This document shows positions 58-2,978 of a DNA stretch of 4,143 nucleotides, one piece after another. The DNA is taken from positions 1 to 4,143 of the IMG/VR virus record IMGVR_UViG_2671180878_000004; one strand, 5' to 3'. The translations under genes were made by a program, and so were the position numbers. This DNA is from a virus (lineage: Duplodnaviria > Heunggongvirae > Uroviricota > Caudoviricetes). Positions within the stretch are counted from its first letter, which is position 1, and every line of letters starts with the position of its first letter. The notes under the pieces are model-generated. The model worked only from the letters and a program-made list of their open reading frames with translations, was not told the DNA's origin and did no database searches.

Positions 58-135
58 CTGAATCAGGGGAGGCCGGAATGTTATCTGGCATTTTTAGCAG
101 AGCCTGAATGCCATAATCACGGCTCCCGGAGTTGG

Positions 136-170
136 CCGTCAGTGGGTGACACTGGCGGTTTTTTTGTTTT
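136..170 (+). terminator. Rho-independent terminator (tR'-like late leader terminator, expected target of Q antitermination)
   Basis: Seen in sequence: 9-bp stem CCGTCAGTG (136-144) / CACTGGCGG (150-158) with one G-U pair and a 5-nt loop GGTGA, followed by TTTTTTTGTTTT (159-170). It sits directly upstream of the holin gene, as tR' does in lambdoid phages. Confidence 0.65.
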
Positions 171-215
171 TCTTTACTTTCATTTTCTGTCGGCGGTGAC
201 GGAGACATACATCAG

Positions 216-422
216 ATGGAAAAAATCACAACGGGTGTGTCATACACCACGTCAGCGGTGGGGACGGGATACTGGTTACTGCAGCTGCTGGACAAAGTCT
301 CTCCGTCCCAGTGGGTGGCGATAGGTGTGCTGGGGAGTCTGCTGTTTGGCCTGCTGACGTATCTGACAAACCTTTATTTCAAGATTAAAGAAGATAAGCG
401 TAAGGCGGCGCGGGGAGAGTAA
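216..422 (+). CDS. S: Class II holin, pinholin of the phage 21 S21 family (68 aa)
   Basis: Translation [68 protein letters not shown] is near-collinear with phage 21 S68 as recalled (two TMDs, conserved SPSQW...IGVLGSL...[11 protein letters not shown]...RKAARGE tail). GGAGA at 201-205 serves as RBS. First gene after the terminator. Confidence 0.9.
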
Positions 423-426
423 AGCG

Positions 427-771
427 ATGAAGAAAAAATACGAACTGGTTGTTAAAGGGATAAATAATTACCCGGATAAGATTACTGTTACTGTGGCACT
501 GGAAATTGGTGGGTATCCGTCACTGTTGTTGCCAGATGTGGCGATTAGTCTTGACCGTACTGAAGGTGCCACGCTGGAGTTTTACGAAGCTGAGGCGAAA
601 AAGCAGGCGAAGCAGTTTTTCATGGATGTTGCTGCCGGGTTATGTGAAGGGGATGGTCCGTTGCCGGAAAAGCGCCCCGTAATTTTAGAGGCGCAGGATG
701 TGTTGATAACCTACAGAGGAAAACTACCGGGAATAATTACTGGTTCTCTGAAGACTCCACCGCTGGCCTGA
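427..771 (+). CDS. Hypothetical 114-aa soluble protein between holin and endolysin (positional analogue of small DUF-type ORFs such as ydfR in E. coli cryptic prophages; not verified)
   Basis: ATG at 427 is 4 nt after the holin stop, with GGGGAGAG as RBS 9 nt upstream (translationally coupled layout). No TM segment or recognisable catalytic motif. Coding call rests on ORF length, RBS and context. Confidence 0.65.
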   Translation: MKKKYELVVKGINNYPDKITVTVALEIGGYPSLLLPDVAISLDRTEGATLEFYEAEAKKQAKQFFMDVAAGLCEGDGPLPEKRPVILEAQDVLITYRGKLPGIITGSLKTPPLA

Positions 772-821
772 AGACTTAACATATCCAGGGATTTGAAATC
801 GATAAACCCTGATAAATATCC

Positions 822-1355
822 ATGAACGCAAAAATCAGATACGGCCTGTCGGCTGCCGTTCTGGCGCTGATTGGTGCAGGGGCGTCTGCGCCTGAAATCC
901 TCGACCAGTTTCTTGACGAAAAAGAAGGTAACCACACCACGGCATACCGTGATGGTGCGGGTATCTGGACCATCTGCCGCGGTGCCATCTTGGTGGATGG
1001 TAAACCTGTCGTTCCGGGCATGAAGTTGTCGAAGGAAAAATGCGACCGGGTTAACGCCATTGAGCGTGATAAGGCGCTGGCATGGGTGGAGAAAAACATC
1101 AAAGTGCCGCTGACCGAACCCCAGAAAGCGGGGATCGCGTCATTCTGTCCGTACAACATTGGTCCCGGTAAGTGTTTCCCGTCGACGTTTTACAGACGAA
1201 TTAATGCAGGTGATCGAAAAGGTGCCTGCGAAGCGATTCGCTGGTGGATTAAGGACGGTGGCAGAGACTGCCGTATTCGTTCAAACAACTGTTACGGTCA
1301 GGTATCCCGTCGTGACCAGGAGAGCGCGCTGGCGTGCTGGGGAATCGACAGATAA
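822..1355 (+). CDS. R: SAR endolysin (signal-anchor-release lysozyme, T4-lysozyme/GH24 fold, R21 family)
   Basis: 177-aa product with an N-terminal Gly/Ala-rich weakly hydrophobic SAR segment (YGLSAAVLALIGAGASA) and catalytic-triad spacing E-x8-D-x5-T (EGNHTTAYRDGAGIWT) as in phage 21 R and P1 Lyz. Pairs with the pinholin upstream. No obvious Shine-Dalgarno ahead of ATG 822, which is the first start codon after an in-frame stop at 813. Confidence 0.9.
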   Translation: MNAKIRYGLSAAVLALIGAGASAPEILDQFLDEKEGNHTTAYRDGAGIWTICRGAILVDGKPVVPGMKLSKEKCDRVNAIERDKALAWVEKNIKVPLTEPQKAGIASFCPYNIGPGKCFPSTFYRRINAGDRKGACEAIRWWIKDGGRDCRIRSNNCYGQVSRRDQESALACWGIDR

Positions 1356-1511
1356 GAAGAATATTTTGCTGAAAAATGAGGTTTGCTCACACGGACGGAT
1401 AACACGAAATCCTGCGAACTGACAAAACCTAAGTGAATAAAAGTAAAAACCACGTTTGTTGGCAGCAAGCGGGGTTTTGTGTTTCTGACCTTGGATAAGG
1501 CAAGGGAGAAC

Positions 1512-1694
1512 ATGGAAAAGTATAAACGAATTCTGTTGAGGTTGACTATGAAAAACGGCCTTGAACTGAAAGCGCCAGTAACTGATGACATCAGCAGAGC
1601 ACAGGCTTTTGCTATTAAGTGGGTGGCGGTCGGTATTGCTGTGTCTCCGATGCTGTATGGGCTGGCAAAACTGGTCATTGCGTTGAAATCGTGA
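1512..1694 (+). CDS. Hypothetical small membrane protein (60 aa, C-terminal TM helix)
   Basis: ATG at 1512 preceded by AAGGGAG. Product [60 protein letters not shown] has a basic N-terminus and one C-terminal hydrophobic helix. The ORF track's GTG start at 1479 has a poorer RBS. No homolog recognised. Confidence 0.4.
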
Positions 1695-1849: not shown

Positions 1850-2308
1850 ATGCTTTCCGCGTTTACCGTTATTCTGCTGGTGGTCTGTGGTGCGCTTAGT
1901 CTGGGGCTGAATCATTACCGCGATAACGCCATCACCTACAAAGCGCAGCGCGATAAAAAAGCCAGAGAGCTGGAGCTGGCAAACGCAACCATTACTGATA
2001 TGCAGGTGCGCCAGCGCGATGTTGCTGCGCTCGATGCAAAATACTCGAGGGAATTAGCCGATGCGAGAGCTGAAAATGAAACTCTGCGTGCTGATGTTGC
2101 CGCTGGTCGTAAGCGCCTGCGGATCAACGCCACCTGCTCCGGTACCGTGCGTGAAGCCACCGGCACCTCCGGCGTGGGCAATGATGCCGCCGTCGAACTC
2201 TCTCCGGTTGCTGGACGAAACGTTCTCGGTATCAGAGACGGAATCATCAGCGACCAGGCTGCATTGAGAATGCTTCAGGAATATATCCGTACTCAGTGTA
2301 TTAACTAG
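1850..2308 (+). CDS. Rz: Rz i-spanin (inner-membrane spanin subunit, 152 aa)
   Basis: From ATG 1850 the product [65 protein letters not shown]... matches lambda Rz closely as recalled ([33 protein letters not shown]). N-terminal signal-anchor TM plus coiled-coil periplasmic domain. The 229-aa ORF-track version is an artefactual N-terminal extension. Confidence 0.9.
2061..2267 (+). CDS. Rz1: Rz1 o-spanin (outer-membrane lipoprotein), fully embedded in the +1 frame of Rz
   Basis: Product [39 protein letters not shown]... has a lipoprotein signal peptide with lipobox LVVSAC and a proline-rich mature region, as in lambda Rz1 (MLKLKMMLCVMMLPLVVVGC...CVKPPPPPAW). GAGGGA upstream of 2061. Start could instead be the Met at 2076. 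Confidence 0.85.
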
Positions 2309-2331: not shown

Positions 2332-2556
2332 ATGAAGAAATTACTGGTAACCGTAAAGCCTTTTCAGGGAACAATTCCGTTCCGTATTTTGCAGCGTGGT
2401 CGTGTTCTTGTTGAAGGTTCGTTCAGTGGTAAATGTACGCAATTACACTCCCGGACCTTTCAGGTGAATGCCACGAATGAAGAGCTAACCGTTGAGTGTA
2501 CGATGAATGCCGCTAAATGCCGTATGGTATCGGCTGCATTACAGCCAGTGTGTTGA
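2332..2556 (+). CDS. Hypothetical small Cys-rich protein (74 aa)
   Basis: ATG at 2332 with GGAG 5 nt upstream; the track's start at 2314 is TTG. Product MKKLLVTVKPFQGTIPFRILQRGRVLVEGSFSGKCTQLHSRTFQVNATNEELTVECTMNAAKCRMVSAALQPVC has four Cys and no TM. Occupies the Rz-to-cos interval where lambdoid phages carry morons (bor in lambda). Confidence 0.5.
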   Translation: MKKLLVTVKPFQGTIPFRILQRGRVLVEGSFSGKCTQLHSRTFQVNATNEELTVECTMNAAKCRMVSAALQPVC

Positions 2557-2923: not shown

Positions 2924-2937
2924 GGTCCGACATGAAA
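2924..2937 (-). repeat. cosB R2-like small-terminase binding site (GGTCCGACATGAAA, inverted copy)
   Basis: Exact reverse complement of the R1 copy TTTCATGTCGGACC (14 of 14). Separated from R1 by a 27-bp partly palindromic spacer. Confidence 0.6.
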
Positions 2938-2964
2938 ACGCCTGAAAAAGTCATTTTCGGGCAC

Positions 2965-2978
2965 TTTCATGTCGGACC
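2965..2978 (+). repeat. cosB R1-like small-terminase binding site (TTTCATGTCGGACC)
   Basis: Third copy of the 14-bp motif, 24 bp upstream of the nu1 start codon, as R1 is in lambda. Confidence 0.6.

What the first reader, a model, noticed from the sequence alone, without database searches (positions are those of the whole stretch)
427..771. Unassigned 114-aa ORF translationally coupled between pinholin and SAR endolysin
Canonical phage 21 lysis cassettes run S-R-Rz/Rz1. Here a 114-aa soluble protein is placed 4 nt after the holin stop and 50 nt before the endolysin, so its expression is locked to the lysis genes. It has no TM segment or obvious enzymatic motif. By position it resembles small domain-of-unknown-function ORFs found between holin and lysozyme in some E. 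coli cryptic prophages (I recall ydfR between essQ and rrrQ in Qin, but cannot verify sequence similarity). Its role is unknown; candidates include a lysis regulator, an endolysin chaperone or inhibitor, or a hitchhiking accessory gene.
Basis: partly seen in the sequence, partly recalled or inferred. Interest (0 to 1): 0.5.

Follow-up and report, generated by a model that had tools for sequence, protein, structure and literature searches.

The report
YdfR-family accessory gene in lysis cassette
The small gene between the holin and the lysozyme of this E. coli prophage is a real but already catalogued gene (YdfR/DUF1327 family), an optional insert that near-identical lysis cassettes lack, and its role is still unproven, although its K-12 relative was recently reported to bind RNase E.

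Summary
A 114-aa ORF (427-771) starts 4 nt after the stop of a phage-21-type holin and ends 50 nt before a 177-aa lysozyme with a SAR-like N-terminus.

It is not unassigned. It matches Pfam PF07041 (DUF1327) at 156.8 bits, RefSeq names the identical gene "YdfR family protein", and it is 47% identical to E. coli K-12 YdfR over residues 1-74.

- **How common it is:** it occurs in about 3000 of 5426 complete E. coli genomes and in H-19B, BP-4795 and many Stx1/Stx2c phages.
- **It is optional:** VT2-Sakai has a 94% identical holin and a 96% identical lysozyme joined directly by the same 4-nt junction.
- **Position is not fixed:** the two non-Escherichia homologues I could place lie among tail genes, not lysis genes.
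- **Structure and selection:** the selected unit is an acidic three-strand-plus-helix domain (residues 1-73, dN/dS about 0.2-0.3). The tail is predicted disordered and was truncated by a roughly 451-bp deletion.
- **Fold:** no known fold matches with significance.

The only functional lead is a 2026 report that residues 1-72 of K-12 YdfR bind the catalytic half of RNase E.

Verdict: a known family, an accessory gene rather than a core lysis component, and low interest.

The parts
216..422 (+). Phage-21-type class II holin S (68 aa); its 3' end carries the Shine-Dalgarno run used by the next gene
   Evidence: PF04971 E 1.2e-32; phrog 'holin'; 94% identical to the VT2-Sakai S. No upstream in-frame dual start: ATA at 207-209, where L001 has ATG.
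412..419 (+). GGGGAGAG Shine-Dalgarno-like run, ending 7 nt before the ATG of the YdfR-family ORF (ATG at 427)
   Evidence: Read from the sequence. The same run precedes the lysozyme gene R directly in VT2-Sakai.
427..771 (+). YdfR-family (DUF1327) gene, 114 aa, short form
   Evidence: PF07041 156.8 bits against a cut-off of 25; phrog_406, unknown function; 100% nt identity to the RefSeq 'YdfR family protein' WP_000731241.1.
427..648 (+). Conserved core domain, residues 1-74: strands 5-14, 18-27 and 38-43, helix 50-73; invariant D-R-x-E-G-x-x-L-E-F-Y-E-A motif; acidic (pI 5.1)
   Evidence: AlphaFold2 pLDDT 72-92 over this part; invariant columns; dN/dS 0.18-0.29; pI. This is the only part shared with K-12 YdfR and with the 71-72-aa minimal members.
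649..771 (+). Tail, residues 75-114, plus the stop codon; predicted disordered; a separable module (EKRPVILEAQ..ITYRGKLPG.ITGSLKTPP)
   Evidence: pLDDT below 50 in both models; dN/dS about 1, but at low divergence; the same module follows an unrelated N-terminus in P0154.
757..762 (+). Deletion junction (CCACCG microhomology) that turned a 176-aa long form into this 114-aa form; about 451 nt are missing
   Evidence: Window 401-762 matches L011 2975-3336 (97.8%) and window 757-860 matches L011 3788-3891 (91%).
772..821 (+). 50-nt spacer before the lysozyme gene, with no obvious Shine-Dalgarno run; a remnant of the long form's 321-nt intergenic region
   Evidence: The hairpin at 786-811 is no more stable than in shuffled sequence (z = 0.80).
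822..1355 (+). Lysozyme R (177 aa) with a SAR-like N-terminus
   Evidence: PF00959 E 2.2e-24; 96% identical to the VT2-Sakai R.
1850..2308 (+). Rz i-spanin with Rz1 o-spanin embedded at 2061-2267 (context: the rest of the lysis cassette)
   Evidence: PF03245 E 1.2e-39 and PF06085 E 6.9e-21.

Best explanation
The ORF is a genuine member of the known YdfR/DUF1327 family. It is an optional accessory gene, moron-like, inserted exactly at the holin-lysozyme junction of lambdoid E. coli prophages. It is transcribed with the late operon and takes over the ribosome-binding site inside the holin's 3' end, which serves the lysozyme gene in cassettes without the insert. Its product is a small, soluble, acidic cytoplasmic protein. 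The functional unit is the N-terminal domain of three strands and a helix (residues 1-73). The tail is disordered, and in this copy a deletion has shortened it. The protein is not part of the lysis machinery. My best guess for what it does is that the core domain binds a host factor, most likely the catalytic N-terminal half of RNase E as reported for residues 1-72 of K-12 YdfR, and so adjusts RNA decay late in infection. What is shown: identity, optional presence, module structure, purifying selection on the core. What is inferred: co-expression with the lysis genes, dispensability for lysis. What is extrapolated from a 47%-identical relative: RNase E binding. My confidence by part: family identity about 0.97, accessory rather than core lysis component about 0.8, RNase E binder about 0.3.
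For: - **Family identity:**
- **Optional insert:** VT2-Sakai has a 94% identical holin and a 96% identical lysozyme, with the holin stop, 4 nt and then the lysozyme ATG. The S21-type holin is in 427 phage records and YdfR in only 101. In complete E. coli genomes there are 13,911 holin places against 6,420 YdfR places.
- **Position not tied to lysis:** the Sodalis ligni homologue and a metagenomic homologue lie in tail-gene regions beside HicB, ORF6N and Arc-type accessory genes.
- **Core domain is the selected unit:** dN/dS is 0.18-0.29, the model is confident, and minimal 71-72-aa members exist.
- **Tail is variable and truncated:**
- **RNase E lead:** in PMC13232886, K-12 YdfR gave two-hybrid signals with Rne 1-597, residues 1-72 were sufficient, and Rne 1-598 co-eluted with Strep-YdfR. 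The motif DRxEGxxLEFYEA in that segment is invariant between K-12 YdfR and this protein.
- **Acidic core throughout the family:** pI is 4.6-5.1. This fits a protein that occupies an RNA-binding surface, as the phiKZ protein Dip does on RNase E (PMC4980113).
Against: - The RNase E result comes from a 47%-identical paralogue, in over-expression and two-hybrid settings. No nuclease control was reported for the YdfR co-purification, so the contact could be bridged by RNA.
- Over-expressing K-12 YdfR changed few transcripts and did not affect growth.
- The strict 4-nt junction with the holin in every Escherichia locus examined still allows a lysis-linked role.
- Dispensability for lysis is inferred from comparison, not from a knockout.
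Confidence: 0.6

Rival explanations
1. It regulates lysis: a cytoplasmic antiholin-like factor, or a modulator of the SAR endolysin, made in fixed ratio with the pinholin to set lysis timing. This would be analogous in position to P1 LydB, which lies downstream of the holin LydA (from my own knowledge).
For: The gene always follows the holin stop by 4 nt in the Escherichia loci examined. This holin copy lacks the upstream dual-start codon that usually supplies an antiholin. The K-12 ydfR deletion appears in the hit lists of an envelope-leakiness screen (supplement of PMC3879167).
Against: Near-identical holin and lysozyme genes occur without it in VT2-Sakai and most Stx2a phages. L001 has both the dual start and the ydfR-family gene, so the two do not substitute for each other. 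The protein has no membrane segment and matched only unknown-function PHROG families at E <= 0.01, none in the lysis category. Distant homologues lie among tail genes. The screen hit could be a polar effect of the resistance cassette on the downstream lysozyme gene rrrQ (my inference).
Confidence: 0.15
2. It is a decaying passenger. The 114-aa form is a deletion remnant of a longer gene and no longer does anything useful; it persists because it sits inside an essential operon.
For: The short form arose by a deletion of about 451 nt that removed the helical tail of the 176-aa form. dN/dS is about 1 for residues 75 onward. The database holds many truncated, frameshifted and fused variants.
Against: The core is under purifying selection (dN/dS 0.18-0.29). 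Members of 71-72 aa, consisting of the core alone, exist as intact genes. Short forms ending just after 'KTPP' arose at least twice, with different downstream DNA. This points to a tolerated module boundary rather than random decay. The 114-aa form is itself widespread and conserved at 99% or more.
Confidence: 0.15
3. It benefits the lysogen: a prophage-expressed factor for superinfection exclusion, defence or stress tolerance, in the manner of classical morons.
For: The non-Escherichia homologues sit in accessory-gene islands with HicB, Arc and ORF6N genes. The authors of PMC13232886 mention cold-stress induction of the Qin cluster.
Against: The gene has no promoter-like site of its own. There are almost no ydfR reads in growing K-12. 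No match was found to any PADLOC defence model.
Confidence: 0.1

Closest known systems
E. coli K-12 YdfR (b1555, P76160), Qin cryptic prophage, between essQ and rrrQ
   Same: Same Pfam family. 47% identity over residues 1-74, E 1e-23. Same position, 4 nt after a class II holin and upstream of a 177-aa lysozyme. Same invariant DRxEGxxLEFYEA motif.
   Different: The C-terminal parts are unrelated: K-12 residues 75-103 against the EKRPVILEAQ...KTPP module here. K-12 ydfR overlaps rrrQ by 4 nt, whereas here a 50-nt spacer precedes the lysozyme gene.
Long-form YdfR-family proteins (176 and 183 aa) of E. coli prophages and phage 2H10
   Same: The 176-aa form in L011 is 97.8% identical in DNA over codons 1-112. 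Same junction with the holin.
   Different: The long forms carry about 65 extra residues, predicted as two helices, and a 321-nt spacer before the lysozyme gene. The window copy lost these through a deletion of about 451 nt.
Phage-encoded RNase E modulators, e.g. phiKZ Dip (PMC4980113), T7 gp0.7 (own knowledge)
   Same: If the K-12 result transfers, this would be a small acidic phage protein that binds host RNase E.
   Different: No sequence or fold relationship was found. Dip binds RNA-binding sites in the RNase E scaffold region, whereas YdfR was reported to bind the N-terminal catalytic half. No inhibitory activity has been shown for YdfR.
Accessory genes inserted in lambdoid lysis cassettes, e.g. 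ant between R and Rz in VT2-Sakai
   Same: An optional gene at a gene boundary of an otherwise conserved S-R-Rz cassette. This window likewise has two small unknown ORFs between R and Rz.
   Different: Different protein families. ydfR sits at the S/R boundary and captures the ribosome-binding site embedded in S.

Membership tests
DUF1327 / YdfR family (Pfam PF07041) | Score above the Pfam gathering threshold over the whole model | tested here: met
   156.8 bits against a cut-off of 25; residues 1-112 cover model positions 1-92 of 93.
DUF1327 / YdfR family (Pfam PF07041) | Direct similarity to the name-giving K-12 YdfR | tested here: met
   BLASTP E 1e-23, 47% identity over residues 1-74. Nothing aligns beyond residue 74.
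DUF1327 / YdfR family (Pfam PF07041) | Location between a class II holin and a lysozyme in a lambdoid prophage | tested here: met
   This is typical but not universal: Sodalis-type members lie among tail genes.
DUF1327 / YdfR family (Pfam PF07041) | Binding to the N-terminal half of RNase E (reported only for K-12 YdfR) | not testable with these tools
   PMC13232886. Only conservation of the core motif could be checked here.
Phage-21-type pinholin / SAR-endolysin lysis cassette (the context) | Holin of the P21 S family | tested here: met
   PF04971 E 1.2e-32. PMC10462455 classes the near-identical H-19B and Stx2a holins as pinholins by homology.
Phage-21-type pinholin / SAR-endolysin lysis cassette (the context) | Lysozyme with a weakly hydrophobic, Gly/Ala-rich N-terminal signal-anchor-release segment | tested here: inconclusive
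   The N-terminus YGLSAAVLALIGAGASA has a highest 19-residue hydropathy of 1.67, and the protein matches PF00959. This fits a SAR segment, but membrane release was not tested.
Phage-21-type pinholin / SAR-endolysin lysis cassette (the context) | Dual-start holin/antiholin motif | tested here: not met
   There is no in-frame ATG, GTG or TTG upstream of 216. 207-209 is ATA, where L001 has ATG. The closest genome copy is also annotated as 68 aa.
Antiholins and other lysis regulators | A membrane or periplasmic segment, or similarity to a family annotated as lysis-related | tested here: not met
   No TM segment. All five PHROG matches are 'unknown function'. NCBIfam gave no match.
Known anti-phage defence proteins (PADLOC) | Match to a PADLOC model | tested here: not met
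   No family at E <= 0.1 for the short or long forms.

The most novel reading that the evidence does not exclude
YdfR-family proteins may be a class of late-expressed, phage-encoded binders of the RNase E catalytic domain, carried by Stx1/Stx2c and many other E. coli lambdoid prophages. Made together with the lysis proteins, they would change the decay of the long late transcript, which in Stx phages also carries stx, or of host mRNAs, and so influence toxin yield, burst size or lysis timing.
Probability: 0.2. Interest if true: 0.6.

Novelty: already known. Interest (0 to 1): 0.2.

Why it matters
The gene sits in the late operon of Shiga-toxin phages and of more than half of sequenced E. coli genomes, and it still has no proven function. 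If the reported RNase E contact holds for these phage copies, it would add a host RNA-decay modulator to the operon that controls toxin release. As a genome-scan finding, however, it is an annotated family member and brings nothing new beyond the details of its module structure.

Tried and rejected
- **Sequence search of PDB** with the family profile: best E 0.56, i.e. noise.
- **Remote homologues.** An exhaustive HMMER search over 1.84 billion representatives found only 56 proteins. Two giant repeat proteins among them (P0141, P0161) are surface proteins with other domains and count as spurious strand-like matches.
- **Search with the Sodalis member** found only one more relative.
- **Genome-contig scan** returned only three Escherichia loci, because the patterns it chose came from the E. 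coli-specific middle module.
- **PADLOC, NCBIfam and Rfam:** no matches for the ORF or this region.
- **Hairpin in the 50-nt spacer:** not more stable than shuffled sequence.
- **Long-range pairing** of 619-643 with 802-826 over the lysozyme start codon appears in the minimum-energy fold. The fold is not significant (z -1.45), and the other allele carries an uncompensated mismatch. I kept it only as a note.
- **The envelope-screen hit for K-12 ydfR** appears only in supplementary lists, so I did not treat it as evidence for a lysis role.

Full report
**Observation.** The window is the late region of a lambdoid E. coli prophage. In order it carries:
- a class II holin (216-422, PF04971 'P21 holin S', E 1.2e-32);
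- the ORF in question (427-771, 114 aa);
- a phage lysozyme (822-1355, PF00959);
- two small unknown ORFs;
- Rz with embedded Rz1 (1850-2308 and 2061-2267);
- one more unknown ORF;
- Nu1 and the start of the large terminase subunit.

The holin stops with TAA at 420-422 and the ORF's ATG is at 427, a 4-nt gap. A GGGGAGAG run lies at 412-419, inside the holin gene. The ORF stops at 769-771 and the lysozyme starts at 822, a 50-nt spacer. The protein has no hydrophobic segment: the highest 19-residue hydropathy is 1.18, against 1.83 for the holin. No promoter-like or terminator-like site separates the three genes beyond chance expectation.

**Identity.** The ORF is not unassigned.
- It matches Pfam PF07041 (DUF1327) at 156.8 bits, against a cut-off of 25.
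- It matches PHROG 406, unknown function, at E 1.2e-64.
- Its DNA is 100% identical to a gene that RefSeq calls 'YdfR family protein' in E. coli O145:H28 RM12761. The whole window is 97.7% identical to prophages of O145 and related STEC strains.
- Against K-12 YdfR itself (b1555, between essQ and rrrQ in Qin), BLASTP gives 47% identity over residues 1-74, E 1e-23. Nothing aligns beyond residue 74.

DNA matches occur in 3006 of 5426 complete E. coli genomes. Protein matches occur in 101 phage records, among them H-19B, BP-4795, YYZ-2008, Stx2 phage 86, 2H10, mEp460 and many Stx1a and Stx2c phages.

**A very narrow family.** An exhaustive HMMER pass over 1.84 billion representative proteins found only 56 hits, nearly all from Escherichia or Shigella. 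Two giant repeat proteins in that list are spurious.

**Anatomy.** The family is modular.
- **Core, residues 1-74.** All members share it, including 71-72-aa minimal proteins. AlphaFold2 models it confidently (pLDDT 72-92) as three antiparallel strands (5-14, 18-27, 38-43) followed by a helix (50-73). The invariant residues form a D-R-x-E-G-x-x-L-E-F-Y-E-A motif at the third strand and the start of the helix. The core is acidic in every member checked, pI 4.6-5.1. It is under purifying selection, with pairwise dN/dS of 0.18-0.29.
- **Tail, residues 75-112 (EKRPVILEAQ..ITYRGKLPG.ITGSLKTPP).** This is a second module. It is predicted disordered in both models and also occurs behind an unrelated N-terminus in P0154. 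Its dN/dS is near 1, although at low divergence.
- **Long forms, 176 or 183 aa.** These add about 65 residues, predicted at low confidence as two helices.

The window's 114-aa form is a deletion derivative of the 176-aa form. Window 401-762 aligns to L011 2975-3336 at 97.8%, and window 757-860 aligns to L011 3788-3891 at 91%. About 451 nt are missing, with a 6-nt CCACCG overlap at the junction. The last residues (L-A-stop) are read from what was intergenic DNA. A different 114-aa form, ending TPPKW and followed by a 343-nt spacer, exists in E. ruysiae. Truncation just after 'KTPP' therefore happened at least twice.

**Optional insertion.** VT2-Sakai carries a holin 94% identical and a lysozyme 96% identical to those of the window. 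There the holin stop is followed by 4 nt and then the lysozyme ATG, and the same GGGGAGAG run lies in the holin's 3' end. The ydfR-family gene and its spacer are thus a roughly 395-bp insert placed exactly at the start codon of the downstream gene. It captures the ribosome-binding site that otherwise serves the lysozyme, and the lysozyme gene is left behind a spacer with no obvious Shine-Dalgarno run.

Counts point the same way. Among phage records, 427 have this holin type and 101 have YdfR. In complete E. coli genomes there are 13,911 holin places and 6,420 YdfR places; the search sensitivities differ, so that ratio is rough. VT2-Sakai and 933W are lysis-proficient, inducible phages (established knowledge), so the gene is very unlikely to be a required lysis component. 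This remains an inference from comparison, not a knockout result.

**Position outside Escherichia.** I could place two distant homologues: Sodalis ligni P0165 (39% identical to the window protein in the alignment) and a metagenomic relative, P0169. Both lie in prophage tail regions, next to HicB-, Arc- and ORF6N-type accessory genes, upstream of the tail L gene or the J-like tail-tip gene. The core domain therefore travels as a free-standing accessory gene, and its link to the holin is specific to Escherichia lambdoids.

**Mechanism.** Structure comparison gave no significant relative.
- Foldseek against PDB and BFVD gave nothing at E <= 0.001.
- The PDB sequence search returned only noise.
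- I reject the dsRBD resemblance because the first helix is missing and the domain is acidic.

The one experimental lead is a 2026 paper, PMC13232886.
- K-12 YdfR was recovered in a two-hybrid screen.
- Its first 72 residues were sufficient for the interaction.
- The full-length fusion gave signal only with Rne 1-597.
- Rne 1-598 co-eluted with Strep-tagged YdfR, and RNA co-purified as well.

There are caveats. No nuclease control was reported for YdfR. Over-expression changed few transcripts and did not affect growth. ydfR was almost silent in growing cells, as expected for a late gene of a prophage.

The interacting segment is exactly the conserved core, and its invariant motif is present here. 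I therefore take 'binds the RNase E catalytic half and modulates RNA decay late in infection' as the most likely molecular action, at about 0.3 probability. An acidic small protein occupying an RNA-binding surface has a precedent in phiKZ Dip (PMC4980113), but there is no homology between the two.

**Rivals.**
- **Lysis regulator.** The invariant 4-nt junction and the missing dual start in this holin copy favour it. Against it, L001 has both the dual start and the gene, cassettes without the gene exist, there is no membrane segment, and no lysis-annotated family matches. The K-12 ydfR deletion appears in supplementary hit lists of an envelope-leakiness screen but not in that paper's main text. 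A polar effect of the cassette on the downstream lysozyme gene would explain the hit (my inference).
- **Decaying remnant.** The deletion origin and the relaxed tail favour it. Purifying selection on the core and the existence of intact core-only genes argue against it.
- **Lysogen-benefit or defence factor.** It has little support: no promoter of its own and no PADLOC match.

**Verdict.** The feature is a member of a catalogued family found in thousands of genomes and in classical Stx phages. The new details here are:
- the exact insertion geometry;
- the three-module structure;
- the deletion origin of the 114-aa form;
- the acidic, selected core;
- the tail-region location of distant homologues.

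Function remains unproven. Novelty: already known. Interest: low.

Noticed in passing
window 201-218: This holin copy has no dual-start (antiholin) codon. 207-209 is ATA, whereas L001 reads ATG TAC CAG ATG. The sequence upstream of 213 is unrelated to L001 and to Stx phages, so a mosaic junction lies just upstream of the holin.
   Followed up: partly
window 1479-1694 and 1707-1838: Two small ORFs lie between the lysozyme and Rz, at the place where VT2-Sakai carries ant. They are 71 aa (phrog_1115) and 43 aa (phrog_4906), both of unknown function and both with a strongly hydrophobic stretch that suggests small membrane proteins.
   Followed up: no
window 2332-2556: A 74-aa ORF lies after Rz, roughly where lambda has bor. 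It matches only phrog_2571 (unknown function), with no Pfam or NCBIfam hit.
   Followed up: no
window 134-170: The strongest terminator-like site of the scan (11-pair stem, 6 G-C pairs, then a T run) lies just upstream of the holin gene. It is presumably read through by Q antitermination.
   Followed up: no
window 619-643 and 802-826: A 25-nt imperfect inverted repeat with a 9-nt perfect core (TTCATGGAT / ATCCATGAA) would pair ydfR codons 65-72 with the lysozyme start codon. It appears in the minimum-energy fold. The other ydfR allele has an uncompensated A-to-C change and the fold is not significant (z -1.45).
   Followed up: partly
window 2924-2978: A near-perfect hairpin (25-nt arms, 88% complementary, 5-nt loop) lies about 25 nt upstream of the Nu1 start, in the expected cos region. 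A related direct repeat is at 2854-2875.
   Followed up: no
P0154: The middle module (EKRPIILEAQ..ITYKGKLPGRITGSLKTPPKW) occurs behind an N-terminal half that lacks the DUF1327 core. That half resembles the helical tail of the 183-aa forms, which suggests a rearranged order of the modules.
   Followed up: no
L003 6001-6219 and L015 4642-4926: In Sodalis ligni and a related metagenomic contig, core-only DUF1327 genes sit in tail-gene regions together with HicB-, Arc-, ORF6N- and FtsK-gamma-type accessory genes.
   Followed up: partly
L008 3479-3739 and L011 3464-3727 (minus strand): Gene callers place an 86-87-aa ORF with no Pfam hit on the opposite strand, across the 3' end of the long-form ydfR gene and the following spacer. 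This is the stretch deleted in the window.
   Followed up: no
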